The position numbers were made by a program, and so were the translations under genes. Shown here piece by piece: positions 39,001 through 64,000 of a DNA stretch of 64,000 bases. Under the pieces are notes generated by a model that saw only the letters and a program-made list of their open reading frames with translations, did no database searches and was not told the origin of the DNA. The stretch comes from Balanoglossus misakiensis (taxonomy: Eukaryota; Animalia; Hemichordata), in assembly GCA_040954595.2 (NCBI GenBank), contig CM082598.2:9129097-9193096 (forward strand). The letters are read 5' to 3'. The number at the start of each line of letters is the position of its first letter. Within the stretch, counting starts at the first letter, position 1.

Positions 39001-39376
39001 CTTTGTAGTGGACAAACGATGGCAGAGAGTTTGTTGCCGCCATTCTTGGGAGGGGTGAAATGATGGCTGAGAATTTTTTGCCGCCATTCTTGGGAGGGGA
39101 AAAATAACGGCGGAGAGTTTGTTGCCGCCATTCTTGGGAGGGGAGAAATGATGGCAGAGAATTTATTGCCGCCATCCTTGGGAGGGGAGAAATAACGGCT
39201 GAGAGTTTGTTGCCGCCATTCTTTGTAGTGGAGATAGCAACGATGGCAGAGAGTTTGTTGCCGCCATTCTTGGGAGGGGAGAAATGATGGCTGAGATTTT
39301 GTTGCCGCCATTCTTGGGAGGGGATAAATGATGGCAGAGAATTTGTTGCCGTCATTCTTGGGAGGGGAGAAATGAT
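1..39376. repeat. 44-bp tandem satellite array (left arm), roughly 890 monomers, with local higher-order repeats
   Basis: Continuous head-to-tail copies of GGAGGGGAGAAATGATGGC(T/A)GAGAATTTGTTGCCGCCATTCTTG with recurrent variants (TAACGG for TGATGG, TTGTAGTGG or TTGTAGGGG for TTGGGAGGGG, etc.). All monomers are in the same orientation. The array runs off the window start and stops mid-monomer at ...GAGAAATGAT (39376). Confidence 0.99.
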
Positions 39377-39453
39377 ATAATATTTAAAGCCTAATCACTC
39401 CGCTCAATGATATACCTATTATTATAAGGAATGGGTTAAAGAGCCTGATGTTG
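39377..39453 (-). repeat. Split direct repeat B2 (3' terminal copy, 77 bp)
   Basis: Identical to 39699-39775. Separated from A2 by an approximately 130-bp unique spacer. Confidence 0.95.
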
Positions 39454-39591
39454 GTAATCATGAGCGAAATGATAAAAAGGGGGTGGGCGGGTGGGCGAAC
39501 ACCTTACCCGATCCCCACTTCCTCCTACATAGTCACCTTATCCCCCTCCTGGGTACTCGATCCTAATTACATCTTAACTTCTATAAGTCTA

Positions 39592-39698
39592 GAAGCAAGG
39601 GATTGGCCACAAGTAGCATTCTCTTCTTACTTATATACACTGGTCTTATGAATATTCATGGCGTAATAATCTCGCTATGTGATAAGGCTTTGAATAAT
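39592..39698 (-). repeat. Split direct repeat A2 (internal copy, 107 bp)
   Basis: Identical to 45743-45849 and directly abuts B1. Confidence 0.95.
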
Positions 39699-39720
39699 AT
39701 AATATTTAAAGCCTAATCAC
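39679..39720. other. Putative recombinase attachment site at the internal B1/A2 (circle-junction) boundary
   Basis: GTGATAAGGCTTTGAATA-ATATAA-TATTTAAAGCCTAATCAC has 18-bp inverted arms (16/18 match) around a 6-bp spacer. The element termini correspond to a cut inside the spacer. Confidence 0.7.
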
Positions 39721-39775
39721 TCCGCTCAATGATATACCTATTATTATAAGGAATGGGTTAAAGAGCCTGATGTTG
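39699..39775 (-). repeat. Split direct repeat B1 (internal copy, 77 bp)
   Basis: ATAATATTTAAAGCCTAATCAC...GAGCCTGATGTTG is identical to 39377-39453. Confidence 0.95.
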
Positions 39776-39932: not shown

Positions 39933-39938
39933 TTTATT
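39933..39938 (-). terminator. Candidate poly(A) signal after YR
   Basis: AATAAA (ATAATAAATA) about 60 nt past the YR stop. Confidence 0.4.
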
Positions 39939-39999
39939 ATATTGAAACTACCATGTAGCTGCGTATAATATAACAGATCACAGAAAAGTCGCCCACATT

Positions 40000-41268
40000 T
40001 TACTTGGCCTGAAAAGCCCTTGTGAATCCAACCAGTTTCTCAGTTGCATTATACCTTTCAATATGTCGCATGGAGGCAAGCAAATCCTCCGTTCTATTGC
40101 CTTGGCGGCCAATATTGGCAACAACTGACAGCTTAGTATAATAATCAGCCATCTTCTCAGTTTTCCAACCCACATGACTCATGACTTCATCTACGTGAGC
40201 ACCCGCTAACGACATAGTGATAGCACACGCACTTCTCAGACTGTGTGGTGTCTCACCTTCATCCATATTAAGTGATTGTAAATAAAGTTTAAGCCGATGA
40301 TATATAACCTGCGATGACAAAGGTTTGTTCTCTATATCACCATTAGGTTTAGTGGGTCTAAACAAATACCCAGTCATGATATCTACACCTAGATTTAAAG
40401 ACAAATCAATATATCGCTCTAAAGTATTTACAGGACACAAACGGGTATCCGCACATCTCTTAAGTACAAACATATTTGAATTACATCCACGAAGAGTCTT
40501 CCCAAATGTATGATTGAAAAGCAAACCTGAATTATCGGGGAAACGAAGAACCTCCTGTGTCTTAATGTGACCCAGATCCCCTGCTCTATCACCTGAGAAA
40601 AATAAAAGCTTAAACACGGCCATGTCTCTAGCATATATATATGCTAAGAGTGGTGACGAACATGAAGAGAGTAACTTTAACAAATGCTCAAAGACGCAAA
40701 TGACCTTCGGCAAAAATAACGGCTTAGCCTGTCTGACTGTCACATTCGCTTGTGCCTGCTCCTCAGAGATTTTCTTTAAATACCTTTGCACCATTATACT
40801 ATCAGTGGGGTTACAAAAACGCTGATTCGGATTTTCTTTTTGTCGTGCTTGAAAATATGAAGAGATCTTAGATATCATGTTTTTGGCTGAACCTATCCTC
40901 AGACGTTTAGGACAACCGCATGGCGCACGACCAGGCTGACCTAAGTATGCACATGTGTAACGATGGACTTGCGTTTTCGCATCTTTATCCTTAAAGACTA
41001 AAAACCTAACAATATCGTGCGGGCTAGCTCGGCTTACAGGCTTGGGCACAGGGAGTCTTGCAAGGAATAACTCAAGTTCTTGTATTAAGCGGTCTTTCTG
41101 TTTCTCATACGGAGATCGATCCCCTAATAAATCCGAGATACGTTGGTCGATATGATGAAGGTCAACACCGTTGAAGTCATTTAAACCGGTTCCTTGGATC
41201 GCTTTTGATGAACAGACACCACATGACTGAGATGTTGTATCATTCAAAGCACCACAAATCCAACATGT
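40000..41268 (-). CDS. Tyrosine recombinase with N-terminal C4 zinc finger and ALOG-type DNA-binding domain (probably a spliced terminal exon)
   Basis: Catalytic set R (GDRAGDL), K (GKTLRG), HxxR (HSLR), W (VGW) and Y (DYYTK) is present. The ALOG-like segment reads FLVFKDKDAKTQVHRYTC...PCGCPKRLRIGS...NPTDSIMVQRYLKKISEEQAQA. The frame is open 7 codons upstream of the track's TTG start (TCWICGALNDTTSQSCGVC), back to a TTCTTCTAG acceptor at 41269. Confidence 0.93.
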   Translation of the reverse strand, partial: TCWICGALNDTTSQSCGVCSSKAIQGTGLNDFNGVDLHHIDQRISDLLGDRSPYEKQKDRLIQELELFLARLPVPKPVSRASPHDIVRFLVFKDKDAKTQVHRYTCAYLGQPGRAPCGCPKRLRIGSAKNMISKISSYFQARQKENPNQRFCNPTDSIMVQRYLKKISEEQAQANVTVRQAKPLFLPKVICVFEHLLKLLSSCSSPLLAYIYARDMAVFKLLFFSGDRAGDLGHIKTQEVLRFPDNSGLLFNHTFGKTLRGCNSNMFVLKRCADTRLCPVNTLERYIDLSLNLGVDIMTGYLFRPTKPNGDIENKPLSSQVIYHRLKLYLQSLNMDEGETPHSLRSACAITMSLAGAHVDEVMSHVGWKTEKMADYYTKLSVVANIGRQGNRTEDLLASMRHIERYNATEKLVGFTRAFQAK

Positions 41269-41322
41269 CTAGAAGAAATCATAAGAGACACCCATTCATC
41301 AGTCTACTAAGACATAAAATAT

Positions 41323-41332
41323 TTTATTTATT
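41323..41332 (-). terminator. Candidate poly(A) signal after pol
   Basis: Two overlapping AATAAA in ATGAAATAAATAAAAT, about 160 nt past the pol stop. Same ATGAAATAAATA context as after gag. Confidence 0.45.
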
Positions 41333-41487
41333 TCATACCAGATAATATTGACATTAATAGAAGATACACTTATAATATCTCTATCAAAATCCTAACGATC
41401 TTTTGCAATACTACAAATTCACCAAAGAAGAAAAACCATTTACTGTATACCCATCATATATCCCATAAATAGTAACAACTACATGAT

Positions 41488-43710
41488 TTATACATCCCAA
41501 TCGAATTTGACTGCCAAGAGGTCACACCGCAACTCATAATCTATATAACCCTGAGTAGAGGGGGCTTGAATAATACCTATTTCCCCTCGACTACCCAACT
41601 TTATAACCGCAGCTGCTAATTGATTAATAACGGGCCAATACGAAGCCAGAAAACGACCTCTCGGTACAATCACTGTGGCATGTAATCTCTGACTAATGAC
41701 ATGTTTAAGTGTCGCAGCCACTAAGAAAAATGGTGGATACACATAAATGGTATCCTTGTCTGAGAAAACATGCCGGAAAAAATTAACACCCTCACATCCT
41801 ATCTGAGGAAACTGTGACACATATCGAGATAACTTCTTATTAGAAACATCAGCCATGCCATCTATATGATGAGGACCAAAATTTTCCTCCAGGAATTGCC
41901 ATACCACAGCGGTCAAAGTAGCATTTGACAATGATGTAGATCGAGAAGGTAGATCGGCATCATTAGCCTTAGAAGGTATATATGTAAGGGTAAGTCGAAC
42001 ATTGTGCTGAAAGCAGAAGTCAAAGATACGCTTCAAAATTTCATTCAAATCAACATCTTTTGCTCCCGGAATTCCCCCATTCCATGCCTGTACTATAGGA
42101 AGTGCATCGATATATGCATCAACTCGAGTATTACGAATTTGCTCTTGAAAACCAACCAATGCTCTACACAAAGCTTCTGCTTCCTTCTTTATAATGGGAA
42201 AATCTTTCCACTTACTATCCCACATATCTCCTATAACCACCTTGTTATTAGCTACGTACATAACCGCACCCCATTTGTACTGACTTGCGTCAGAAAATAC
42301 CCTTACCCCTACATGACTTTCGGTTGGCCAAATAAATTTACCCGCCGAATCTAAGATGGATTTCCACTGTACAATCTCAGATTTCAAGCGTCCCCTTATA
42401 GGTATCAAAGCTCTACTCGATATCTGAGCTTTCCCACAAGCATTGGCCATTTGTCGAACATATAACCGAGCGCATGGTAATGCTAACGTAAATGAAATGC
42501 ATTTCCCCATTAATTTCTGCATTGTCAAAAGTGGAACTGCCCTCTGTGACAGAACATCCTCCAGCAAATTTAAAAACTTCGTTTTTTTATCATCCGGGAT
42601 AGAAAAGGATCTATTCACCGAATCGACTGAAAAACCTAACATTATCAAAGATGTCACAGGATATAACACACTTTTCTCCAAAGAGAGAAAATATCCTGCA
42701 TCAATAGCGATTTTACACAATATATAAGCTGCCGCCTGTGCACATTGCAAACTATCCCAAGAAGAACTTGCATCAGCTGGCAACTTTAATCCACCCCCAT
42801 GCCTATCATCGATATATTGAATGCAAGGTACTCCCAATAATCTAGCATAACTAGTAACACAATATCCCAAAGTGTGATATACATATGCCGATAACTTCCA
42901 ACCAAAAGGTAATGAATTATTCACATACCACACCCCCGCCCATTGAAATCCTACATACATTCTATCAGTATGTCGTATTAAAACGTGGTCGTACCCACTC
43001 TTATCATCACACTTAAACTGAAAATCGCCTTCAGCCAAGTATCTAGTGACTTCAAAAAGCTTATCTAAGTGGAACGGACGAGGTTCCGTCCATAGATTAA
43101 GAAAGCGCATGTCAATACACATACGCGGTTTAGACGGTTCAACCGAAATCGGCATAACCAAATAAGGAGGTTGGTGGCGACCAACCAACCCCCAAACTGA
43201 TACTGCTCCAGCTTTAACACGTTCAGCGATAGTCTGAGCGATAAACCGACCATGCTGACGACAATTCGGATGATTCTGAAACACCCTAGGGGGTGGAATA
43301 TCATGATCATACTGTTGCCCTTTAAACTCCCCCTTGAAATGGGTAAAATATTGTGAAATACTAACACGATTCCTTATCCAGTCCATAATGTCATTCTTGT
43401 TATGTATATGGTCTGTAATCATGTCCCAATAATCACCATGTTCATGTATCTGCCCGGCCATGAAATCTTCCGTATTCCGAAATACCAAGTCATCAGGAGT
43501 TGCAAACTCTACTCCGCGTGCTATCATAGCTATCGAAGGCGAGGTATGGTGAGGACCCTGACGAGGGGCGCCCCCAAGCGTTCTCCACGAATATTGGGTT
43601 CTCGGGACAGCATGCATATCCACCATAAAGTCATTTTCCCATACTGGTGGCTGAAACCAACAGCAAACAAAAGAGGATTCCATCAACAAAACGGTGATAT
43701 CAACCGTCAT
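41488..43710 (-). CDS. Pol: reverse transcriptase + RNase H + C-terminal DNA N6-adenine methyltransferase-like domain
   Basis: 740-aa uninterrupted ORF. RT motifs: KPRMCIDMRFLN, DDKSGYDH, LPFGW, YIDD (about 42805-42816). RNase H motifs: FSDAS, KEAEAL, YIDA, NDADLPSR. MT-like tail: GPHHIDGMA..SNKKL...YVYPPF...VIVP. The true 5' boundary may be the splice acceptor at 43650. Confidence 0.95.
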   Translation of the reverse strand: MTVDITVLLMESSFVCCWFQPPVWENDFMVDMHAVPRTQYSWRTLGGAPRQGPHHTSPSIAMIARGVEFATPDDLVFRNTEDFMAGQIHEHGDYWDMITDHIHNKNDIMDWIRNRVSISQYFTHFKGEFKGQQYDHDIPPPRVFQNHPNCRQHGRFIAQTIAERVKAGAVSVWGLVGRHQPPYLVMPISVEPSKPRMCIDMRFLNLWTEPRPFHLDKLFEVTRYLAEGDFQFKCDDKSGYDHVLIRHTDRMYVGFQWAGVWYVNNSLPFGWKLSAYVYHTLGYCVTSYARLLGVPCIQYIDDRHGGGLKLPADASSSWDSLQCAQAAAYILCKIAIDAGYFLSLEKSVLYPVTSLIMLGFSVDSVNRSFSIPDDKKTKFLNLLEDVLSQRAVPLLTMQKLMGKCISFTLALPCARLYVRQMANACGKAQISSRALIPIRGRLKSEIVQWKSILDSAGKFIWPTESHVGVRVFSDASQYKWGAVMYVANNKVVIGDMWDSKWKDFPIIKKEAEALCRALVGFQEQIRNTRVDAYIDALPIVQAWNGGIPGAKDVDLNEILKRIFDFCFQHNVRLTLTYIPSKANDADLPSRSTSLSNATLTAVVWQFLEENFGPHHIDGMADVSNKKLSRYVSQFPQIGCEGVNFFRHVFSDKDTIYVYPPFFLVAATLKHVISQRLHATVIVPRGRFLASYWPVINQLAAAVIKLGSRGEIGIIQAPSTQGYIDYELRCDLLAVKFDWDV

Positions 43711-43916
43711 GAAATGTGGGGGCGCCCCTCGACAGGATCCTACAAATGGCAGGTTGCAAAAGCAAAGAGCCTAGTTAAGGCCCCTCCCATCGAGAGGTAA
43801 CCTAAACCACATTATATATATGCATACGTACATGCAAATCTTCAAACATGGGACATGTACTTATCATTCGTCAACACAAATAAACAAATATGCAGCATAC
43901 AATAAAGACGGGTGTA

Positions 43917-43922
43917 TTTATT
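43917..43922 (-). terminator. Candidate poly(A) signal after gag
   Basis: ATGAAATAAATA about 55 nt past the gag stop, followed by a GT/T-rich tract (TTTGTTTATTTGTGTTG). Confidence 0.5.
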
Positions 43923-43975
43923 TCATTATGTATCCCAAAATAACGTCATTACAGTCACTGAATTACAAGACAAAT

Positions 43976-44446
43976 TCACGTTTCCTGATCTGGCTTCATT
44001 CGACAATTGCGGGCAAAATGACCAGGCTGGCCACATCTAAAACATCGGAAATCTTTCCCATACGATTGCCTTCTCCTTCCTCGGCCATACGGACGAAAAC
44101 GATCGTTGGAAGGCCTGTGTTTTAAGAATTTTGAAACTTTCGACGCAATCTCTTCTTCCTCTTTGTTACCCAGTAACAGAATGATCAAGCGTCCAGCGTC
44201 CTCTCCAAAATCATTCGCTTCAAACTGCGACAATACAGCTCGAAATCTCTGCAGCTTAGGATGCGACACCAAAGTAGCTCTATCCACCAACGTACGTAGA
44301 GCACTCAACACCTGTGGTCTTGATGAGAAGGCTGGGGTATGCGCGAATTCCATCACTTTATGCAAGGCTTCATCTACAGATGCTACACCCGCTGTTTCTT
44401 CGATTTTGTCAACTTTCTTCATTAGCAGTGTCAACTTCTCATTAAC
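43976..44446 (-). CDS. Gag-like protein with C-terminal CCHC zinc knuckle (predicted exon 2)
   Basis: CFRCGQPGHFARNC matches CX2CX4HX4C and follows a basic RPYGRGRRR tract. It sits upstream of pol. The track start at 44464 is a TTG just upstream of a TTTCAG acceptor (44447). Confidence 0.85.
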   Translation of the reverse strand, partial: VNEKLTLLMKKVDKIEETAGVASVDEALHKVMEFAHTPAFSSRPQVLSALRTLVDRATLVSHPKLQRFRAVLSQFEANDFGEDAGRLIILLLGNKEEEEIASKVSKFLKHRPSNDRFRPYGRGRRRQSYGKDFRCFRCGQPGHFARNCRMKPDQET

Positions 44447-45491
44447 CTGAAACAATTCAGGCAAATATATCAGTCAACGTCACATCCTGATATCATCTAA
44501 CAGTGTTACTTTACAATATCCCATGCGTAAGACAATTCCACTACCAGACACCATTTCGGCTACATTCGAAGTCACACCCAATATCATGACCGTATTCCAC
44601 AAAACAACATGCATGATACTATGAGCATACAGAACAATAGAAAGAACTTATGCAAATTCACAGGAGCACTCCACAACCATATGGTATCTTTTGAATGCAC
44701 GCCCCACCTGGCATGCCTTAAACAATGTCCATTGTATGCGTGGCTCTAAAATAACTGTTACCCATTCATATGCAAATCTACCTAATTACGCACTCCTTGC
44801 ACACATTCCGTCATTCCAACCGTTGTACAGAATATCAAACATTGCATGGAACTTCAGTCGAATGCTTTTTTTTTTTTAACACACTCTACGATGCTCCCCG
44901 CATATTCCTTTATTGCTCTCCACTACATGAACAATGTTCATGCAGCTCCGCCCAGTGCTCACAGAACACCTATTGTGCCACCACAGTAACATATTCGTGC
45001 AACTCCACCTGGTGCTCCCAGAGCGCCTACTATTGCACCATCCATAATAACATATTCGTGCAACTCCACCTGGTGCTCCCAGAGCGCCTACTATTGCACC
45101 ATCCATAATAACATATTTGTGCAACTCCACCTGGTGCTCCCAGAGCGCCTACTATTGCACCATCCATAATAACATATTCGTGCAACTCCACCTGGTGCTC
45201 CCAGAGCGCCTACTATTGCACCATCCATAATAACATATTCGTGCAACTCCACCTGGTGCTCCCAGAGCGCCTACTATTGCACCATCCATAATAACATATT
45301 CGTGCAACTCCACCTGGTGCTCCCAGAGCGCCTACTATTGCACAATAGTGTTAACAGTACACCCAATAAATATAACAACATAATCGAACTAAACCGACCA
45401 AAATATGGCCGATGAAACATGTATGTACAAAACCTAGCCAAAGACCGAAGGACATTTACATTCCGCTAATGAGCCAAAAACTGATAATTAC
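44447..45491 (-). other. Predicted GT-AG spliceosomal intron (1045 bp) in gag
   Basis: Donor CAG|GTAATT, branch-like GACTGAT about 25-30 nt before acceptor TTGTTTCAG|GTT. Removal joins ...SQQQ to VNEKL... in frame. The interval has no convincing ORF and holds a minisatellite and a T12 run. Confidence 0.65.
44987..45343. repeat. 61-bp minisatellite, about 5.9 near-identical copies, plus degenerate copies upstream (about 44880-44986)
   Basis: Unit TAACATATTCGTGCAACTCCACCTGGTGCTCCCAGAGCGCCTACTATTGCACCATCCATAA starts at 44987, 45048, 45109, 45170, 45231 and 45292. One C>T at 45118. Confidence 0.97.
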
Positions 45492-45728
45492 CTGCTGCTG
45501 CGATAAACGCTGATCTTGGCCATCCCTATTATTATGCTGAGCGGGCGTATCGCCTGCCACCACCTGAGCCTGAGAAGCTGCGCCTTCCGGGACTTGCACC
45601 GAAACACGTGTAGAGCTGCCTTGACTAGCTGAAGGCCCTGCTACATGAGCCTGTGTAAAAGTGGCCGTGGTAGCCGATAAAGGCAAGCTTGTGGTAGCCG
45701 GAGTATTACTGCGTCCGTCAGTCATCAT
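45492..45728 (-). CDS. Predicted leader coding exon (79 aa, S/T/A/Q-rich low-complexity N-terminus; alternative ATG at 45770)
   Basis: Part of ORF 45456-45791 (MMTDGRSNTPATTS...RLSQQQ). It is GC-richer than the flanks and ends at CAG|GTAATT, a phase-0 donor in frame with the gag, pol and YR acceptors. Confidence 0.6.
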
Positions 45729-45742
45729 CACTTCTAAGTCTG

Positions 45743-45849
45743 GAAGCAAGGGATTGGCCACAAGTAGCATTCTCTTCTTACTTATATACACTGGTCTTAT
45801 GAATATTCATGGCGTAATAATCTCGCTATGTGATAAGGCTTTGAATAAT
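45743..45849 (-). repeat. Split direct repeat A1 (5' terminal copy, 107 bp)
   Basis: GAAGCAAGGGATTGGCC...GATAAGGCTTTGAATAAT is identical to 39592-39698. The match extends about 8 bp further (45735/39584) with one mismatch. Confidence 0.95.
45782..45788 (-). promoter_or_regulatory. Candidate TATA box in repeat A1
   Basis: TATATAA on the minus strand, about 60 bp inside the 5' end and about 55 bp upstream of ATG 45728. The palindrome ATGAATATTCAT (45799-45810) lies just upstream. Motif evidence only. Confidence 0.4.
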
Positions 45850-48800
45850 GTCAGAGAATTTGTTGCCGCCATTCTTGGGAGGGGAGAAATGATGGCTGAT
45901 AATTTGTTGCCGCCATTCTTGGGCGGGGACAAATGATGGCAGAGAATTTGTTTCCGCCATTCTTTGGAGGGGAGAAATGATGGCAGAGAATATATTGCCG
46001 CCATCCTTGGGAGGGGAGAAATAACGGCTGAGTGTTTGTTGCCGCCATTCTTGGGAGGGGAGAAATGATGGCTGAGAATTTGTTGCCGCCATTCTTGGGA
46101 GGGGAGAAATGATGGCTGAGAATTTGTTGCCGCCATTCTTGGGAGGGGAGAAATAACGGCTGAGAGTTTGTTGCCGCCATTATTGGGAGGGGAGAAATGA
46201 TGGCAGAGAATTTGTTGCCGCCATTCTTGGGAGGGAAGAAATGATGGCTGAGAATTTGTTGCCGCCATTCTTTGGAGGGGAGAAATGATGGCAGAGAATT
46301 TATTGCCGCCTTCCTTGGGAGGGGAGAAATGATGGCTGAGAATATATTGCCGCCATCCTTGGGAGGGGAAAAATAACGGCGGAGAGTTTGTTGCCGCCAT
46401 TCTTGGGAGGGGAGAAATGATGGCAGAGAATTTATTGCCGCCATCCTTGGGAGCGGAGAAATAACGGCTGAGAGTTTGTTGCCGCCATTCTTTGTAGTGG
46501 AGAAACGATGGCAGAGAGTTTGTTGCCGCCATTCAGCATTCTTTGTAGTGGAGAAACGATGGCAGAGAGTTTGTTGCCGCCATTCTTGGGAGGGGAGAAA
46601 TGATGGCTGAGAATTTTTTGCCGCCATTCTTGGGAGGGGAGAAATAACGGCGGAGAGTTTGTTGCCGCCATTCTTGGGAGGGGAGAAATGATGGCAGAGA
46701 ATTTATTGCCGCCATCCTTGGGAGGGGAGAAATAACGGCTGAGAGTTTGTTGCCGCCATTCTTTGTAGTGGAGAAACGATGGCAGAGAGTTTGTTGCTGC
46801 CATTCTTGGGAGGGGAGAAATGATGGCTGAGAATTTTTTGCCGCCATTCTTGGGAGGGGAAAAATAACGGCGGAGAGTTTGTTGCCGCCATTCTTGGGAG
46901 GGGAGAAAGGATGGCAGAGAATTTATTGCCGCCATCCTTGGGAGCGGAGAAATAACGGCTGAGAGTTTGTTGCCGCCATTCTTTGTAGTGGAGAAACGAT
47001 GGCAGAGAGTTTGTTGCCGCCATTCTTTGTAGTGGAGAAACGATGGCAGAGAGTTTGTTGCCGCCATCCTTGGGAGGGGAGAAATAACGGTTGAGAGTTT
47101 GTTGCCGCCATTCTTTGTAGTGGAGAAACGATGGCAGAGAGTTTGTTGCCGCCATTCTTGGGAGGGGAGAAATGATGGCTGAGAATTTGTTGCCGCCATT
47201 CTTGGGAGGGGAGAAATGATGGCAGACAATTTGTTGCCGCCATTCTTGGGAGGGGAGAAATAACGGCTGAGAGTTTGTTGCCGCCATTATTGGGAGGGGA
47301 GAAATGATCGCAGAGAATTTGTTGCCGCCATTCTTGGGAGGGGAGAAATGATGGCTGAGAATTTGTTGCCGCAATTCTTTGGAGGGGAGAAATGATTGCA
47401 GAGAATTTATTGCCGCCTTCCTTGGGAGGGGAGAAATAACGGCTGAGAGTTTGTTGCCGCCATTCTTTGTAGTGGAGAAACGATGGCAGAGAGTTTGTTG
47501 CCGCCATTCTTGGGAGGGGAGAAATGATGGCTGAGAATTTGTTGCCGCCATTCTTTGTAGTGGAGAAACGATGGCAGAGAGTTTGTTGCCCCCATTCTTG
47601 GGAGGGGAGAAATGATGGCTGAGAATTTTTTGCCGCCATTCTTGGGAGGGGAAAATAACGGCGGAGAGTTTGTTGCCGCCATTCTTGGGAGGGGAGAAAT
47701 GATGGCAGAGAATTTATTGCCGCCATCCTTGGGAGGGGAGAAATAACGGCTGAGAGTTTGTTGCCGCCATTCTTTGTAGTGGAGAAACGATGGCTGAGAA
47801 TTTGTTGCCGCCATTCTTGGGAGGGGAGAAATGATGGCTGAGAATTTGTTGCCGCCATTCTTGGGAGGGGATAAATGATGGCAGAGAGTTTGTTGCCGCC
47901 ATTCTTTGTAGTGGAGAAACGATGGCAGAGAGTTTGTTGCCGCCATTCTTGGGAGGGGAGAAAGGATGGCAGAGAATTTATTGCCGCCATCCTTGGGAGC
48001 GGAGAAATAACGGCTGAGAGTTTGTTGCCGCCATTCTTTGTAGTGGAGAAACGATGGCAGAGAGTTTGTTGCCGCCATTCTTTGTAGTGGAGAAACGATG
48101 GCAGAGAGTTTGTTGCCGCCATCCTTGGGAGGGGAGAAAGGATGGCAGAGAATTTATTGCCGCCATCCTTGGGAGCGGAGAAATAACGGCTGAGAGTTTG
48201 TTGCCGCCATTCTTTGTAGTGGAGAAACGATGGCAGAGAGTTTGTTGCCGCCATTCTTTGTAGTGGAGAAACGATGGCAGAGAGTTTGTTGCCGCCATCC
48301 TTGGGAGGGGAGAAATAACGGTTGAGAGTTTGTTGCCGCCATTCTTTGTAGTGGAGAAACGATGGCAGAGAGTTTGTTGCCGCCATTCTTGGGAGGGGAG
48401 AAATGATGGCTGAGAATTTGTTGCCGCCATTCTTGGGAGGGGAGAAATGATGGCAGACAATTTGTTGCCGCCATTCTTGGGAGGGGAGAAATAACGGCTG
48501 AGAGTTTGTTGCCGCCATTATTGGGAGGGGAGAAATGATCGCAGAGAATTTGTTGCCGCCATTCTTGGGAGGGGAGAAATGATGGCTGAGAATTTGTTGC
48601 CGCAATTCTTTGGAGGGGAGAAATGATTGCAGAGAATTTATTGCCGCCTTCCTTGGGAGGGGAGAAATAACGGCTGAGAGTTTGTTGCCGCCATTCTTTG
48701 TAGTGGAGAAACGATGGCAGAGAGTTTGTTGCCGCCATTCTTGGGAGGGGAGAAATGATGGCTGAGAATTTGTTGCCGCCATTCTTTGTAGTGGAGAAAC

Positions 48801-51800
48801 GATGGCAGAGAGTTTGTTGCCCCCATTCTTGGGAGGGGAGAAATGATGGCTGAGAATTTTTTGCCGCCATTCTTGGGAGGGGAAAATAACGGCGGAGAGT
48901 TTGTTGCCGCCATTCTTGGGAGGGGAGAAATGATGGCAGAGAATTTATTGCCGCCATCCTTGGGAGGGGAGAAATAACGGCTGAGAGTTTGTTGCCGCCA
49001 TTCTTTGTAGTGGAGAAACGATGGCTGAGAATTTGTTGCCGCCATTCTTGGGAGGGGAGAAATGATGGCTGAGAATTTGTTGCCGCCATTCTTGGGAGGG
49101 GATAAATGATGGCAGAGAGTTTGTTGCCGCCATTCTTTGTAGTGGAGAAACGATGGCAGAGAGTTTGTTGCCGCCATTCTTGGGAGGGGAGAAAGGATGG
49201 CAGAGAATTTATTGCCGCCATCCTTGGGAGCGGAGAAATAACGGCTGAGAGTTTGTTGCCGCCATTCTTTGTAGTGGAGAAACGATGGCAGAGAGTTTGT
49301 TGCCGCCATTCTTTGTAGTGGAGAAACGATGGCAGAGAGTTTGTTGCCGCCATCCTTGGGAGGGGAGAAATAACGGTTGAGAGTTTGTTGCCGCCATTCT
49401 TTGTAGTGGAGAAACGATGGCAGAGAGTTTGTTGCCGCCATTCTTGGGAGGGGAGAAATGATGGCTGAGAATTTGTTGCCGCCATTCTTGGGAGGGGAGA
49501 AATGATGGCAGACAAATTGTTGCCGCCATTCTTGGGAGGGGAGAAATAACGGCTGAGAGTTTGTTGCCGCCATTATTGGGAGGGGAGAAATGATCGCAGA
49601 GAATTTGTTGCCGCCATTCTTGGGAGGGGAGAAATGATGGCTGAGAATTTGTTGCCGCAATTCTTTGGAGGGGAGAAATGATTGCAGAGAATTTATTGCC
49701 GCCTTCCTTGGGAGGGGAGAAATAACGGCTGAGAGTTTGTTGCCGCCATTCTTTGTAGTGGAGAAACGATGGCAGAGAGTTTGTTGCCGCCATTCTTGGG
49801 AGGGGAGAAATGATGGCTGAGAATTTGTTGCCGCCATTCTTTGTAGTGGAGAAACGATGGCAGAGAGTTTGTTGCCCCCATTCTTGGGAGGGGAGAAATG
49901 ATGGCTGAGAATTTTTTGCCGCCATTCTTGGGAGGGGAAAATAACGGCGGAGAGTTTGTTGCCGCCATTCTTGGGAGGGGAGAAATGATGGCAGAGAATT
50001 TATTGCCGCCATCCTTGGGAGGGGAGAAATAACGGCTGAGAGTTTGTTGCCGCCATTCTTTGTAGTGGAGAAACGATGGCTGAGAATTTGTTGCCGCCAT
50101 TCTTGGGAGGGGAGAAATGATGGCTGAGAATTTGTTGCCGCCATTCTTGGGAGGGGATAAATGATGGCAGAGAGTTTGTTGCCGCCATTCTTTGTAGTGG
50201 AGAAACGATGGCAGAGAGTTTGTTGCCGCCATTCTTGGGAGGGGAGAAATGATGGCTGAGAATTTTTTGCCGCCATTCTTGGGAGGGGAGAAATAACGGC
50301 GGAGAGTTTGTTGCCGCCATTCTTGGGAGGTGAGAAATGATGGCAGAGAATTTATTGCCGCCATCCTTGGGAGGGGAGAAATAACGGCTGAGAGTTTGTT
50401 GCCGCCATTCTTTGTAGTGGAGAAACGATGGCAGAGAGTTTGTTGCCGCCATTCTTGGGAGGGGAGAAATGATGGCTGAGAATTTGTTGCCGCCATTCTT
50501 GGGAGGGGAGAAATGATGGCTGAGAATTTGTTGCCGCCATTCTTGGGAGGGGAGAAATAACGGCTGAGAGTATGTTGCCGCCATTACTGGGAGGGGAGAA
50601 ATGATGGCAGAGAATTTGTTGCCGCCATTCTTGGGAGGGGAGAAATGATGGCTGAGAATTTGTTGCCGCCATTCTTTGGAGGGGAGAAATGATGGCAGAG
50701 AATTTATTGCCGCCTTCCTTGGGAGGGGAGAAATAACGGCTGAGAGTTTGTTGCCGCCATTCTTGGGCGGGGAGAAATGATGGCAGAGAATTTGTTGCCG
50801 CCATTCTTGGGAGGGGAGAAATGATGGCTGAGAATTTGTTGCCGCCATTCTTGGGAGGGGATAAATGATGGCAGAGAGTTTGTTGCCGCCATTCTTTGTA
50901 GTGGAGAAAAGATGGCAGAGAGTTTGTTGCCGCCATTCTTGGGAGGGGAGAAATGATGGCTGAGAATTTTTTGCCGCCATTCTTGGGAGGGGAGAAATAA
51001 CGGCGGAGAGTTTGTTGCCGCCATTCTTGGGAGGGGAGAAATAACGGCTGAGAGTTTGTTGCCGCCATTATTGGGAGGGGAGAAATGATCGCAGAGAATT
51101 TGTTGCCGCCATTCTTTGGAGGGGAGAAATGATTGCAGAGAATTTATTGCCGCCTTCCTTGGGAGGGGAGAAATAACGGCGGAGAGTTTGTTGCCGACAT
51201 TCTTGGGAGAGGAGAAATGATGGCAGAGAATATATTGCCGCCATCCTTGGGAGGGGAGAAATAACGGCTGAGAGTTTGTTGCCGCCATTCTTTGTAGTGG
51301 AGAAACGATGGCAGAGAGTTTGTTGCCGCCATTCTTGGGAGGGGAGAAATGATGGCTGAGAATTTGTTGCCGCCATTCTTTGTAGTAGAGAAACGATGGC
51401 AGAGAGTTTGTTGCCGCCATTCTTGGGAGGGGAGAAATGATGGCTGAGAATTTTTTGCCGCCATTCTTGGGAGGGGAAAATAACGGCGGAGAGTTTGTTG
51501 CCGCCATTCTTGGGAGGGGAGAAATGATGGCAGAGAATTTATTGCCGCCATCCTTGGGAGGGGAGAAATAACGGCTGAGAGTTTGTTGCCGCCATTCTTT
51601 GTAGTGGAGAAACGATGGCTGAGAATTTGTTGCCGCCATTCTTGGGAGGGGAGAAATGATGGCTGAGAATTTGTTGCCGCCATTCTTGGGAGGGGATAAA
51701 TGATGGCAGAGAGTTTGTTGCCGCCATTCTTTGTAGTGGAGAAACGATGGCAGAGAGTTTGTTGCCGCCATTCTTGGGAGGGGAGAAATGATGGCTGAGA

Positions 51801-54800
51801 ATTTTTTGCCGCCATTCTTGGGAGGGGAGAAATAACGGCGGAGAGTTTGTTGCCGCCATTCTTGGGAGGGGAGAAATGATGGCAGAGAATTTATTGCCGC
51901 CATCCTTGGGAGGGGAGAAATAACGGCTGAGAGTTTGTTGCCGCCATTCTTTGTAGTGGAGAAACGATGGCAGAGAGTTTGTTGCCGCCATTCTTGGGAG
52001 GGGAGAAATGATGGCTGAGAATTTGTTGCCGCCATTCTTGGGAGGGGGGAAATGATGGCTGAGAATTTGTTGCCGCCATTCTTGGGAGGGGAGAAATAAC
52101 GGCTGAGAGTATGTTGCCGCCATTACTGGGAGGGGAGAAATGATGGCAGAGAATTTGATGCCGCCATAATTGGGAGGGGAGAAATGATGGCTGAGAATGT
52201 GTTGCCGCCATTCTTTGGAGGGGAGAAATGATGGCAGAGAATTTATTGCCGCCTTCCTTGGGAGGGGAGAAATAACGGCTGAGAGTTTGTTGCCGCCATT
52301 CTTGGGCGGGGAGAAATGATGGCAGAGAATTTGTTGCCGCCATTCTTGGGAGGGGAGAAATGATGGCTGAGAATTTGTTGCCGCCATTCTTGGGAGGGGA
52401 TAAATGATGGCAGAGAGTTTGTTGCCGCCATTCTTTGTAGTGGAGAAAAGATGGCAGAGAGTTTGTTGCCGCCATTCTTGGGAGGGGAGAAATGATGGCT
52501 GAGAATTTTTTGCCGCCATTCTTGGGAGGGGATAAATAACGGCGGAGAGTTTGTTGCCGCCATTCTTGGGAGGGGAGAAATAACGGCTGAGAGTTTGTTG
52601 CCGCCATTATTGGGAGGGGAGAAATGATCGCAGAGAATTTGTTTCCGCCATTCTTTGGAGGGGAGAAATGATGGCAGAGAATATATTGCCGCCATCCTTG
52701 GGAGGGGAGAAATAACGGCTGAGTGTTTGTTGCCGCCATTCTTGGGAGGGGAGAAATGATGGCTGAGAATTTGTTGCCGCCATTCTTGGGAGGGGAGAAA
52801 TGATGGCTGAGAATTTGTTGCCGCCATTCTTGGGAGGGGAGAAATAACGGCTGAGAGTTTGTTGCCGCCATTATTGGGAGGGGAGAAATGATGGCAGAGA
52901 ATTTGTTGCCGCCATTCTTGGGAGGGAAGAAATGATGGCTGAGAATTTGTTGCCGCCATTCTTTGGAGGGGAGAAATGATGGCAGAGAATTTATTGCCGC
53001 CTTCCTTGGGAGGGGAGAAATGATGGCTGAGAATATATTGCCGCCATCCTTGGGAGGGGAGAAATAACGGCTGAGAGTTTGTTGCCGCCATTCTTTGTAG
53101 TGGAGTAACGATGGCAGAGAGTTTGTTGCCGCCATTCTTGGGAGGGGAGAAATGATGGCTGAGAATTTGTTGCCGCCATTCTTTGTAGTGGAGAAACGAT
53201 GGCAGAGAGTTTGTTGCCGCCATTCTTGGGAGGGGAGAAATGATGGCTGAGAATTTTTTGCCGCCATTCTTGGGAGGGGAAAATAACGGCGGAGAGTTTG
53301 TTGCCGCCATTCTTGGGAGGGGAGAAATGATGGCAGAGAATTTATTGCCGCCATCCTTGGGAGGGGAGAAATAACGGCTGAGAGTTTGTTGCCGCCATTC
53401 TTTGTAGTGGAGAAACGATGGCTGAGAATTTGTTGCCGCCATTCTTGGGAGGGGAGAAATGATGGCTGAGAATTTGTTGCCGCCATTCTTGGGAGGGGAT
53501 AAATGATGGCAGAGAGTTTGTTGCCGCCATTCTTTGTAGTGGAGAAACGATGGCAGAGAGTTTGTTGCCGCCATTCTTGGGAGGGGAGAAATGATGGCTG
53601 AGAATTTTTTGCCGCCATTCTTGGGAGGGGAGAAATAACGGCGGAGAGTTTGTTGCCGCCATTCTTGGGAGGGGAGAAATGATGGCAGAGAATTTATTGC
53701 CGCCATCCTTGGGAGGGGAGAAATAACGGCTGAGAGTTTGTTGCCGCCATTCTTTGTAGTGGAGAAACGATGGCAGAGAGTTTGTTGCCGCCATTCTTGG
53801 GAGGGGAGAAATGATGGCTGAGAATTTGTTGCCGCCATTCTTGGGAGGGGGGAAATGATGGCTGAGAATTTGTTGCCGCCATTCTTGGGAGGGGAGAAAT
53901 AACGGCTGAGAGTATGTTGCCGCCATTACTGGGAGGGGAGAAATGATGGCAGAGAATTTGATGCCGCCATAATTGGGAGGGGAGAAATGATGGCTGAGAA
54001 TGTGTTGCCGCCATTCTTTGGAGGGGAGAAATGATGGCAGAGAATTTATTGCCGCCTTCCTTGGGAGGGGAGAAATAACGGCTGAGAGTTTGTTGCCGCC
54101 ATTCTTGGGCGGGGAGAAATGATGGCAGAGAATTTGTTGCCGCCATTCTTGGGAGGGGATAAATGATGGCAGAGAGTTTGTTGCCGCCATTCTTTGTAGT
54201 GGAGAAAAGATGGCAGAGAGTTTGTTGCCGCCATTCTTGGGAGGGGAGAAATGATGGCTGAGAATTTTTTGCCGCCATTCTTGGGAGGGGATAAATAACG
54301 GCGGAGAGTTTGTTGCCGCCATTCTTGGGAGGGGAGAAATAACGGCTGAGAGTTTGTTGCCGCCATTATTGGGAGGGGAGAAATGATCGCAGAGAATTTG
54401 TTTCCGCCATTCTTTGGAGGGGAGAAATGATGGCAGAGAATATATTGCCGCCATCCTTGGGAGGGGAGAAATAACGGCTGAGTGTTTGTTGCCGCCATTC
54501 TTGGGAGGGGAGAAATGATGGCTGAGAATTTGTTGCCGCCATTCTTGGGAGGGGAGAAATGATGGCTGAGAATTTGTTGCCGCCATTCTTGGGAGGGGAG
54601 AAATAACGGCTGAGAGTTTGTTGCCGCCATTATTGGGAGGGGAGAAATGATGGCAGAGAATTTGTTGCCGCCATTCTTGGGAGGGAAGAAATGATGGCTG
54701 AGAATTTGTTGCCGCCATTCTTTGGAGGGGAGAAATGATGGCAGAGAATTTATTGCCGCCTTCCTTGGGAGGGGAGAAATGATGGCTGAGAATATATTGC

Positions 54801-57800
54801 CGCCATCCTTGGGAGGGGAGAAATAACGGCTGAGAGTTTGTTGCCGCCATTCTTTGTAGTGGAGTAACGATGGCAGAGAGTTTGTTGCCGCCATTCTTGG
54901 GAGGGGAGAAATGATGGCTGAGAATTTGTTGCCGCCATTCTTTGTAGTGGAGAAACGATGGCAGAGAGTTTGTTGCCGCCATTCTTGGGAGGGGAGAAAT
55001 GATGGCTGAGAATTTTTTGCCGCCATTCTTGGGAGGGGAAAAATAACGGCGGAGAGTTTGTTGCCGCCATTCTTGGGAGGGGAGAAATGATGGCAGAGAA
55101 TTTATTGCCGCCATCCTTGGGAGCGGAGAAATAACGGCTGAGAGTTTGCTGCCGCCATTCTTTGTAGTGGAGAAACGATGGCAGAGAGTTTGTTGCCGCC
55201 ATTCTTTGTAGTGGAGAAACGATGGCAGAGAGTTTGTTGCCGCCATTCTTGGGAGGGGAGAAATGATGGCTGAGAATTTTTTGCCGCCATTCTTGGGAGG
55301 GGAGAAATAACGGCGGAGAGTTTGTTGCCGCCATTCTTGGGAGGGGAGAAATGATGGCAGAGAATTTATTGCCGTCATCCTTGGGAGGGGAGAAATAACG
55401 GCTGAGAGTTTGTTGCCGCCATTCTTTGTAGTGGAGAAACGATGGCAGAGAGTTTGTTGCCGCCATTCTTGGGAGGGGAGAAATGATGGCTGAGAATTTG
55501 TTGCCGCCATTCTTTGGAGGGGAGAAATGATGGCTGAGAATTTGTTGCCGCCATTCTTGGGAGGGGAGAAATAACGGCTGAGAGTTTGTTGCCGCCATTA
55601 TTGGGAGGGGAGAAATGATCGCAGAGAATTTGTTGCCGCCATTCTTGGGAGGGGAGAAATGATGGCTGAGAATTTGTTGCCGCCATTCTTTGGAGGGGAG
55701 AAATAACGGCTGAGAGTTTGTTGCCGCCATTCTTGGGCGGGGAGAAATGATGGCAGAGAATTTGTTGCCGCCATTCTTGGGAGGGGAGAAATGATGGCTG
55801 AGAATTTGTTGCCGCCATTCTTGGGAGGGGATAAATGATGGCAGAGAGTTTGTTGCCGCCATTCTTTGTAGTGGAGAAAAGATGGCAGAGAGTTTGTTGC
55901 CGCCATTCTTGGGAGGGGAGAAATGATGGCTGAGAATTTTTTGCCGCCATTCTTGGGAGGGGAGAAATAACGGCGGAGAGTTTGTTGCCGCCATTCTTGG
56001 GAGGGGAGAAATAACGGCTGAGAGTTTGTTGCCGCCATTATTGGGAGGGGAGAAATGATCGCAGAGAATTTGTTGCCGCCATTCTTGGGAGGGGAGAAAT
56101 GATGGCTGAGAATTTGTTGCCGCCATTCTTTGGAGGGGAGAAATGATTGCAGAGAATTTATTGCCGCCTTCCTTGGGAGGGGAGAAATAACGGCGGAGAG
56201 TTTGTTGCCGACATTCTTGGGAGAGGAGAAATGATGGCAGAGAATATATTACCGCCATCCTTGGGAGGGGAGAAATAACGGCTGAGAGTTTGTTGCCGCC
56301 ATTCTTTGTAGTGGAGAAACGATGGCAGAGAGTTTGTTGCCGCCATTCTTGGGAGGGGAGAAATGATGGCTGAGAATTTGTTGCCGCCATTCTTTGTAGT
56401 GGAGAAACGATGGCAGAGAGTTTGTTGCCGCCATTCTTGGGAGGGGAGAAATGATGGCTGAGAATTTGTTGCCGCCATTCTTGGGAGGGGAGAAATGATG
56501 GCTGAGAATTTGTTGCCGCCATTCTTGGGAGGGGAGAAATAACGGCTGAGAGTTTGTTGCCGCCATTATTGGGAGGGGAGAAATGATCGCAGAGAATTTG
56601 TTGCCGCCATTCTTGGGAGGGGAGAAATGATGGCTGAGAATTTGTTGCCGCCATTCTTTGGAGGGGAGAAATGATTGCAGAGAATTTATTGCCGCCTTCC
56701 TTGGGAGGGGAGAAATAACGGCGGAGAGTTTGTTGCCGACATTCTTGGGAGAGGAGAAATGATGGCAGAGAATATATTGCCGCCATCCTTGGGAGGGGAG
56801 AAATAACGGCTGAGAGTTTGTTGCCGCCATTCTTTGTAGTGGAGAAACGATGGCAGAGAGTTTGTTGCCGCCATTCTTGGGAGGGGAGAAATGATGGCTG
56901 AGAATTTGTTGCCGCCAATCTTTGTAGTGGAGAAACCATGGCAGAGAGTTTGTTGCCGCCATTCTTGGGAGGGGAGAAATGATGGCTGAGAATTTTTTGC
57001 CGCCATTCTTGGGAGGGGAAAATAACGGCGGAGAGTTTGTTGCCGCCATTCTTGGGAGGGGAGAAATGATGGCAGAGAATTTATTGCCGCCATCCTTGGG
57101 AGGGGAGAAATAACGGCTGAGAGTTTGTTGCCGCCATTCTTTGTAGTGGAGAAACGATGGCTGAGAATTTGTTGCCGCCATTCTTGGGAGGGGAGAAATG
57201 ATGGCTGAGAATTTGTTGCCGCCATTCTTGGGAGGGGATAAATGATGGCAGAGAGTTTGTTGCCGCCATTCTTTGTAGTGGAGAAACGATGGCAGAGAGT
57301 TTGTTGCCGCCATTATTGGGAGGGGAGAAATGATCGCAGAGAATTTGTTGCCGCCATTCTTGGGAGGGGAGAAATGATGGCTGAGAATTTGTTGCCGCCA
57401 TTCTTTGGAGGGGAGAAATGATTGCAGAGAATTTATTGCCGCCTTCCTTGGGAGGGGAGAAATAACGGCGGAGAGTTTGTTGCCGACATTCTTGGGAGAG
57501 GAGAAATGATGGCAGAGAATATATTGCCGCCATCCTTGGGAGGGGAGAAATAACGGCTGAGAGTTTGTTGCCGCCATTCTTTGTAGTGGAGAAACGATGG
57601 CAGAGAGTTTGTTGCCGCCATTCTTGGGAGGGGAGAAATGATGGCTGAGAATTTGTTGCCGCCAATCTTTGTAGTGGAGAAACCATGGCAGAGAGTTTGT
57701 TGCCGCCATTCTTGGGAGGGGAGAAATGATGGCTGAGAATTTTTTGCCGCCATTCTTGGGAGGGGAAAATAACGGCGGAGAGTTTGTTGCCGCCATTCTT

Positions 57801-63800: not shown

Positions 63801-64000
63801 TGGCTGAGAATTTGTTGCCGCCATTCTTTGGAGGGGAGAAATGATGGCAGAGAATTTATTGCCGCCTTCCTTGGGAGGGGAGAAATAACGGCTGAGAGTT
63901 TTTTGCCGCCATTCATGGGCGGGGAGAAATGATGGCAGAGAATTTGTTTCCGCCATTCTTTGGAGGGGAGAAATGATGGCAGAGAATTTATTGCCGCCAT
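45850..64000. repeat. 44-bp tandem satellite array (right arm), roughly 410 monomers
   Basis: Same monomer and orientation as the left arm. It resumes at GTCAGAGAATTTGTTGCC, exactly completing the monomer broken at 39376, and runs off the window end. Confidence 0.99.

What the first reader, a model, noticed from the sequence alone, without database searches (positions are those of the whole stretch)
39933..45770. Retrotransposon apparently built as one leader exon plus three alternative terminal exons (gag / pol / recombinase)
Seen in sequence: the three ORFs do not overlap and are separated by 220-330 bp gaps, so frameshifting or readthrough is unlikely. One upstream ATG exon ends in a phase-0 donor (CAG|GTAATT, 45492/45491). 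Each ORF has a phase-0 acceptor: gag TTGTTTCAG|GTT (44446), pol TCCTCTTTTGTTTGCTGTTGGTTTCAG|CCA (43650) and YR ATTTCTTCTAG|ACA (41268). The gag and YR acceptors share an upstream GACTGAT branch-like motif, and pol has TTGAT. Each ORF is followed by its own AATAAA (43917, 41323/41327, 39933). The YR frame has no in-frame ATG until the middle of its ALOG domain, and its reading frame begins exactly at the acceptor, so it needs an upstream start. Inference: alternative splicing and polyadenylation yield about 235, 799 and 501 aa proteins sharing a 79-aa N-terminal tag, while an unspliced read-through RNA is the genomic template. Established: retroelements normally lose introns, although introns occur in Penelope-like and some YR elements. 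I do not know this three-way cassette design as a described scheme.
Basis: partly seen in the sequence, partly recalled or inferred. Interest (0 to 1): 0.88.

Follow-up and report, generated by a model that had tools for sequence, protein, structure and literature searches.

The report
Retrotransposon splices one leader three ways
An intact jumping gene that copies itself through RNA keeps introns and likely makes its coat protein, copying enzyme and recombinase by splicing one short first exon onto each, while an RNA stem conserved across relatives likely marks or protects the unspliced copy that is reinserted.

Summary
The element is an intact, apparently young PAT-like (split direct repeat) ALOG-recombinase retrotransposon inserted in a 44-bp satellite. 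No RNA of this element was seen, but relatives support the splicing scheme. The best acceptor before the recombinase is phase 0 in 36 of 36 related loci (21 families). Seven of the 9 closest Gag relatives are gene models with a 63-87-residue leader ending near the predicted junction. Oyster models join one N-terminus to Gag or to recombinase. A poly(A) signal follows gag in 8 of 11 families (1.3 expected). Corrections: the signal after pol occurs in only 5 of 15 families; gag and pol each have a Met at residue 9; and the closest recombinase model runs leader, pol 5' piece, recombinase, so the direct splice is unproven. New here: a helix brackets the pol acceptor in 8 of 9 families and 11 of 12 held-out loci, versus 0 of 18 recombinase acceptors. 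This scan noted similar schemes on other genomes (unchecked notes). I found no paper describing it.

The parts
45735..45849 (-). Split direct repeat A1; holds a TATA-like TATATAA at 45782-45788 (likely promoter)
   Evidence: 114 of 115 nt identical to A2; promoter role inferred
45492..45728 (-). Leader coding exon, 79 aa, S/T/A/P/Q-rich, ending at a phase-0 donor CAG|GTAATT
   Evidence: 32% identity over 77 aa to the N-terminus of RefSeq Gag model P0288 (weak, low complexity); shared Phe motif
44447..45491 (-). Predicted intron 1 (1045 nt), with a 61-bp x 5.9 minisatellite at 44987-45343 and an extra AATAAA at 44909-44914
   Evidence: tandem repeats at the same place in relatives
43976..44446 (-). 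gag exon, 156 aa, CCHC zinc knuckle, phase-0 acceptor
   Evidence: (PF00098 E 3.8e-7)
43917..43922 (-). gag poly(A) signal AATAAA with downstream GU/U-rich sequence
   Evidence: signal within 200 nt of gag stop in 8 of 11 related families, 1.3 expected
43717..43741 (-). Upstream (intronic) arm of the helix that brackets the pol acceptor
   Evidence: (z -4.84, 0 of 200 shuffles)
43552..43576 (-). Downstream (pol-coding) arm of the same helix; 24 of 25 pairs, one of them G-U
41488..43650 (-). pol exon, 720 aa: RT, RNase H, Dam-like methyltransferase; phase-0 acceptor
   Evidence: weak Pfam hits, below curated cut-offs; 65% identical to a Glandiceps RefSeq protein
41323..41332 (-). pol poly(A) signals (two overlapping AATAAA)
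   Evidence: present in 5 of 15 related families, only those with spacers of 137 nt or more
40000..41268 (-). YR exon, 422 aa: Zn ribbon, ALOG, tyrosine recombinase; phase-0 acceptor TAG|ACA; first Met at residue 131
   Evidence: (PF04852 E 9e-19, PF00589 E 5e-11)
39933..39938 (-). YR poly(A) signal AATAAA
   Evidence: 13 of 36 related families, 6.0 expected
39697..39775 (-). Repeat B1, joined to A2 through a shared AT (predicted circle junction)
   Evidence: 79 of 79 nt identical to B2
39584..39698 (-). Repeat A2
39375..39453 (-). Repeat B2, right end; insertion into the 44-bp satellite at an AT shared by target and circle junction

Best explanation
This is an intact PAT-like tyrosine-recombinase retrotransposon with split direct repeats and three separate reading frames, which likely expresses Gag, Pol and recombinase by splicing one short leader exon onto three in-phase acceptors, while a likely unspliced read-through RNA would serve as the template that is copied and reinserted with its introns. 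Shown: the repeats, the open frames, the site motifs, their conservation in relatives, and leader fusions in relatives' gene models. Inferred: transcription starts in A1; most RNA splices to the first acceptor and ends at the gag poly(A) signal, giving excess Gag; read-through RNA splices to the pol or YR acceptor. A long helix joining the intron before pol to the start of the pol exon can form only on RNA that has passed the gag poly(A) site and is not spliced at pol. It likely dampens pol splicing or marks the genomic RNA for packaging. Whether YR is reached directly (about 0.6) or through a short piece of pol or gag (about 0.4) is open.
For: YR acceptor: the best pyrimidine-tract YAG within 75 nt of the first Zn-ribbon Cys is phase 0 in 36 of 36 related loci, 21 of 21 families; the same rule inside coding sequence gives 30/49/38 for phases 0/1/2. 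Both new loci with a ribbon agree. Only 1 of 21 families has a Met before that Cys. Pol acceptor: phase 0 in intact copies and in 7 of 8 held-out loci with an open frame. Gag: 7 of the 9 hits at E 1e-30 or better are Ptychodera RefSeq models with a 63-87-aa S/T/A/P/Q leader, and P0287 has Q|VSEKL where the window predicts Q|VNEKL; the other 2 are short-contig ORFs with Gln just before the homology and no leader. Short ATG exons ending at phase-0 AG|GT lie upstream of the minisatellite in L007, L008, L012, L073 and, read by eye, L011, L016. Protein P0345 is contiguous where L062 DNA has a gap of about 500 nt between the matched stretches. Magallana models share about 160 N-terminal residues between Gag (P0131, P0264) and YR (P0092 and 5 others). 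Branchiostoma P0165 is a Q-rich leader plus Pol. Full-length relatives keep introns between intact split repeats (L038, L061, L081). Poly(A) signal after gag in 8 of 11 families, 1.3 expected. Pol-acceptor helix beats all 20 shuffles in 8 of 9 families and 11 of 12 held-out loci, against 0 of 18 families at the YR acceptor.
Against: No junction read of this element was seen. Gag and Pol each have a Met at residue 9. The closest YR gene models (P0122, P0127) read leader, about 84 aa of Pol, then YR, and bivalve models carry a Gag piece. The pol poly(A) signal is missing in 10 of 15 families, and the YR signal in 23 of 36. The rule-based gag acceptor test was noisy: phase 0 in 5 of 7 related loci with an open frame and 7 of 15 overall. 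In loci without an intact Zn ribbon the YR acceptor was phase 0 in 12 of 17. The first helix test (whole-region duplex energy) was significant in only 4 to 5 of 9 families; the local-helix test was chosen afterwards and then checked on held-out loci. Families share ancestry, so counts are not independent events. For RefSeq models I saw only protein sequences and names, not their transcript support.
Confidence: 0.8

Rival explanations
1. Variant of the main model: the YR message has three exons (leader, the first part of the pol or gag exon, YR), so YR carries an extra piece and the design is nested rather than a clean three-way cassette.
For: Ptychodera YR models P0122 and P0127 contain leader plus about 84 aa of Pol N-terminus, and the junction recurs in all 8 cluster members at least in part. 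Saccostrea P0116 has leader, Gag piece, Pol piece, YR. L038 and L009 have consensus-like phase-0 donors inside gag (read by eye).
Against: Read by eye, the window has no GT at the place of the Ptychodera junction and only weak phase-0 GT sites in the 5' parts of gag and pol (best CGT|GTTAGT near 43365). Donor strength was not scored by computation. The Ptychodera model could rest on an internally deleted subfamily; L023 shows such a pol-YR fusion in DNA.
Confidence: 0.3
2. No splicing: Gag and Pol start at their Met 9 by leaky scanning, reinitiation or internal promoters, and YR starts at a non-AUG codon or Met 131.
For: Met at residue 9 in gag and pol; no RNA evidence for this element.
Against: Homology begins upstream of both Mets. 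Met 131 would remove the Zn ribbon and most of ALOG. In-phase pyrimidine-tract YAG sites are conserved in 21 of 21 families. Leader fusions occur in gene models from three phyla.
Confidence: 0.07
3. The splice-like sites are chance motifs in AT-rich spacers, or the leader is a captured host exon in a dead copy.
For: Such motifs are short; the window's pol AATAAA had a 0.39 chance by composition.
Against: All frames are open, the repeats are 99-100% identical, the leader lies inside A1, and the layout recurs in relatives.
Confidence: 0.03

Closest known systems
Echinoderm-form Pat1-like elements (PAT group, order DIRS; PMC4157794, section 7 and passages read)
   Same: A1-B1-A2-B2 split direct repeats, internal repeat after YR, methyltransferase in pol, zinc finger in Gag, YR on the same strand.
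   Different: No splicing or leader exon is described in the parts read. DIRS-order ORFs are described as frequently overlapping (PMC6681497 passages); here they are separated.
ALOG-recombinase DIRS1-type retroposons (Iyer and Aravind 2012, PMC3537659; first fifth and passages read)
   Same: Gag with Zn knuckle, RT-RNase H, adenine methylase, YR with N-terminal Zn ribbon and ALOG; direct terminal repeats; marine metazoans.
   Different: The paper has 0 occurrences of 'splic' or 'intron' and judged all metazoan copies inactive; this copy has all frames open.
Plant Ty1/Copia EVD strategy (PMC5580714, abstract and outline read)
   Same: Alternative splicing coupled to early termination gives a Gag-only RNA and excess Gag.
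   Different: One intron in a gag-pol ORF, with Pol made from the unspliced RNA. Here all three proteins would need splicing and the unspliced RNA would encode only the leader.
Foamy virus Pol (search listing and abstract starts; spliced pol mRNA recalled) and retroviral env (recalled)
   Same: An enzyme gene expressed apart from Gag from a shared 5' donor; unspliced RNA is the genome.
   Different: Viruses with LTRs and a DDE integrase; Gag comes from unspliced RNA; no shared protein tag on all products.

Membership tests
PAT-like (Pat1, echinoderm form) | Split direct repeats A1-B1-A2-B2 | tested here: met
   A 114 of 115 nt, B 79 of 79 nt identical
PAT-like (Pat1, echinoderm form) | Methyltransferase domain after RNase H | tested here: inconclusive
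   Pfam Dam E 0.026, below the curated cut-off, at the expected place with a YVYPPF motif
PAT-like (Pat1, echinoderm form) | Zinc finger in Gag | tested here: met
   PF00098 above cut-off
PAT-like (Pat1, echinoderm form) | YR on the same strand; internal repeat not between MT and YR | tested here: met
   definition
PAT-like (Pat1, echinoderm form) | Groups with SpPat1 in an RT tree | not tested
ALOG-YR DIRS1-type class | YR with Zn ribbon, ALOG and catalytic domain | tested here: met
   PF04852 E 9e-19 and PF00589 E 5e-11; CxxC...CxxC at the N-terminus
Ngaro | No methyltransferase domain | tested here: not met
   pol extends about 140 aa past RNase H with a weak Dam match; definition
DIRS1-like | Inverted terminal repeats and internal complementary region | tested here: not met
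   only direct terminal repeats found
Spliced three-acceptor scheme | Junction reads of this element | not testable with these tools
   needs RNA runs of the host

The most novel reading that the evidence does not exclude
ALOG/PAT-like retrotransposons are gene-like retroelements in which every protein comes from a spliced mRNA with a shared N-terminal tag. A conserved RNA helix that straddles the pol acceptor exists only on unspliced read-through RNA and is the switch or packaging mark that selects the intron-containing genome for reverse transcription. This explains how a retrotransposon keeps up to several spliceosomal introns and sets its Gag-to-Pol ratio without frameshifting.
Probability: 0.35. 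Interest if true: 0.87.

Novelty: new variant of a known kind. Interest (0 to 1): 0.72.

Why it matters
How DIRS-order elements express separate gag, pol and recombinase frames, and how any retrotransposon keeps introns, is poorly known. This gives exact junctions, a poly(A) site and an RNA helix that can be tested with existing invertebrate long-read data or a reporter. It also means that annotations of these elements truncate their proteins, and that many 'uncharacterized multi-isoform genes' in oyster, scallop, lancelet and acorn-worm annotations are likely transposon transcripts.

Tried and rejected
No whole genome is held for the window, so sister copies were not examined. No RNA holder was listed; this is no evidence either way, and read laying was not used. 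Viral contigs gave no relative. A search of earlier notes by pol sequence and for the helix returned nothing. Whole-region duplex energy was a weak test of the helix: L008, L009, L026 and L032 were not significant. No helix stood out at YR acceptors (0 of 18 families); at gag acceptors scores were low (8.6-14.1), though the window and L062 beat 10 of 10 shuffles. The rule-based gag acceptor scan was confounded by frameshifted copies. Mytilus P0237 first looked like a leader-pol junction but is a jump within gag, so it was dropped. Rows dropped before counts: 5 loci too near a contig end; loci without a pol hit reaching residue 690; 3 loci too near an end. Donor strength was not computed, so internal donors rest on reading by eye. 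Frameshift or readthrough was rejected: 205 nt separate the gag stop from the open pol frame, and 219 nt with several stops separate pol from YR. No structure or complex prediction was run.
Full report
1. What is there. The window is a 44-bp satellite array interrupted once by a 6.5-kb element on the minus strand, 45849-39375. It has split direct repeats: A1 and A2 match at 114 of 115 nt, B1 and B2 at 79 of 79. The left end, the B1-A2 junction and the right end share an AT that is also in the satellite unit. This fits recombinase-mediated insertion of a circle (inference; the model for DIRS-1 is in passages of PMC7192593). Three open frames encode Gag with a CCHC knuckle, RT-RNase H with a weak Dam-like match, and a Zn-ribbon/ALOG/tyrosine recombinase. 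By the definitions in PMC4157794 section 7 this fits echinoderm-form Pat1-like elements, not Ngaro or DIRS1-like; no tree was built. It matches the ALOG class of PMC3537659. The closest named relatives are acorn-worm RefSeq proteins: Pol 65%, YR 48%, Gag up to 69%. The host was not determined.

2. The observation. All named sites are present and in phase 0. Additions: gag and pol have a Met at residue 9, YR first at 131; there is a further AATAAA in intron 1 and a further in-frame ATG at 45770, just after the TATA-like box. Relatives' leaders align from the Met at 45728.

3. Acceptors in related DNA. A metagenome scan kept 79 loci, 42 families at 75% identity. Of 53 related loci examined, 36 have an intact Zn ribbon. 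In all 36 (21 families) the YAG with the richest pyrimidine tract within 75 nt is in phase 0, mostly 12-16 codons before the first Cys; the control inside coding sequence gave 30/49/38. The 17 loci without a ribbon gave 12/3/2. Only 1 of 21 families has a Met before the Cys. Pol acceptors are phase 0, 57-77 codons before the conserved motif, in intact copies and in 7 of 8 held-out open-frame loci. Gag acceptors read by eye are phase 0 in L001, L007, L009, L011, L017, L024, L026, L038 and L062; the rule-based version gave 5 of 7 open-frame loci. Families are related, so these counts show conservation, not independent trials.

4. Leader. Short A/P/Q/N-rich ATG exons ending at a phase-0 donor precede a minisatellite-rich intron in L007, L008, L012 and L073 and, by eye, L011 and L016. 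The window has the same layout, with a 61-bp x 5.9 repeat. L038, L061 and L009 have leaders split over two or more exons, homologous to oyster proteins in which they are contiguous. L038 and L061 sit between intact split repeats, so introns survive transposition.

5. Protein models. Of 9 Gag hits at E 1e-30 or better, 7 are Ptychodera RefSeq models with 63-87 extra N-terminal residues; three are 238, 238 and 241 aa long against 235 predicted. P0345, of unknown source, is contiguous across the first intron of L062. Magallana YR models share about 160 residues with Gag ORFs found on 1.1-1.3-kb Logan contigs, while ORFs on longer contigs lack the leader. Branchiostoma P0165 and Argopecten P0249 join leaders to Pol. 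Against the simplest form: Ptychodera P0122 and P0127 insert about 84 aa of Pol between leader and YR, and bivalve models include a Gag piece. I saw sequences and names only; that RefSeq models draw on RNA-seq is recalled.

6. Poly(A) signals (first locus per family). After gag 8 of 11 (1.3 expected). After pol 5 of 15 (1.1 expected): all 5 families with spacers of 137 nt or more, none of 10 with shorter ones. After YR 13 of 36 (6.0 expected). So the gag terminal exon is general; a separate pol end is a feature of long-spacer families such as this one.

7. A helix around the pol acceptor. The window's strongest inverted repeat pairs 43717-43741 in the intron with 43552-43576 in the pol exon; the region folds at z -4.84, 0 of 200 shuffles. 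Whole-region duplex energy was significant in 4 to 5 of 9 families. A local-helix score, chosen next, beat all 20 shuffles in 8 of 9 families and in 11 of 12 held-out loci, against 0 of 18 families at YR acceptors. The arm sequences differ between families while pairing holds. Both arms lie after the gag poly(A) site, and the upstream arm is removed by pol splicing, so the helix can exist only on unspliced read-through RNA (follows from the layout). Its role as splicing damper or packaging mark is inference.

8. Mechanism. Likely: start in A1; splice to gag and end at 43917 for abundant Gag; read through and splice to pol or YR for the enzymes; leave some RNA unspliced through B1-A2 as template. 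Confidence 0.8 for the scheme, about 0.6 for the direct leader-YR join, about 0.35 for the helix as genome mark.

9. Literature. Searches (listings only) found no description of this scheme. Term look-ups in PMC3537659, PMC7192593, PMC12477816, PMC6681497, PMC4157794, PMC3783388, PMC3266345 and the Xenopus preprint (passages) showed no passage on splicing of natural YR elements; two showed only 12 of 15 and 12 of 24 places. Supplements were not read; that of PMC3537659 and the Ectocarpus family notes may bear on this. Subscription reviews and Repbase Reports are not searchable; I recall reports of single introns in some YR genes. Functional analogues are Copia EVD (PMC5580714 abstract) and foamy-virus Pol (listing). 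Earlier notes of this scan report similar schemes on other genomes, mostly filed as Ngaro; they are unchecked and not used as support.

10. Verdict. Observation confirmed; interpretation largely supported by comparison and refined; not shown in RNA for this copy. New variant of a known kind; interest 0.72.

Noticed in passing
window 1-39374 and 45850-64000: The whole window is a 44-bp satellite with higher-order variants; the element is inserted cleanly at an AT within one unit. Whether the family targets this satellite is unknown.
   Followed up: partly
window 44909-44914 and 44867-44879: An AATAAA inside intron 1, followed about 35 nt later by a 13-nt A run; it could end a leader-only transcript.
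   Followed up: no
L023:218-520: The DNA joins the pol 5' part in frame to YR while keeping the pol acceptor: a deletion derivative or a copy of a partly spliced RNA.
   Followed up: partly
L038:1030-2140, L061:1541-2870, L009:139-578: Relatives resembling oyster elements have multi-exon, folded-looking leaders and lack the YR Zn ribbon; L038 and L009 have consensus-like donors inside gag.
   Followed up: partly
L007:617-1670, L016:1870-2688, L038:269-565, L062:842-1128, L082:76-1525: Unrelated minisatellites recur in the 5' intron region of many families.
   Followed up: partly
L080, L081, L082: These eukaryotic retrotransposons sit in contigs titled as bacterial MAGs, likely host contamination.
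   Followed up: no
P0186, P0190, P0193, P0197: Some related Pol proteins carry a C-terminal extension; P0197 has PF13472 (SGNH-like), a domain usually linked to Ngaro elements.
   Followed up: no
P0133: An oyster 'integrin beta-like' model ends in the element's leader exons, suggesting exon capture or a fused annotation.
   Followed up: no
L001, L008, L011, L055: Head-to-tail tandem copies of elements, which fits insertion into their own junction or into a shared target.
   Followed up: no
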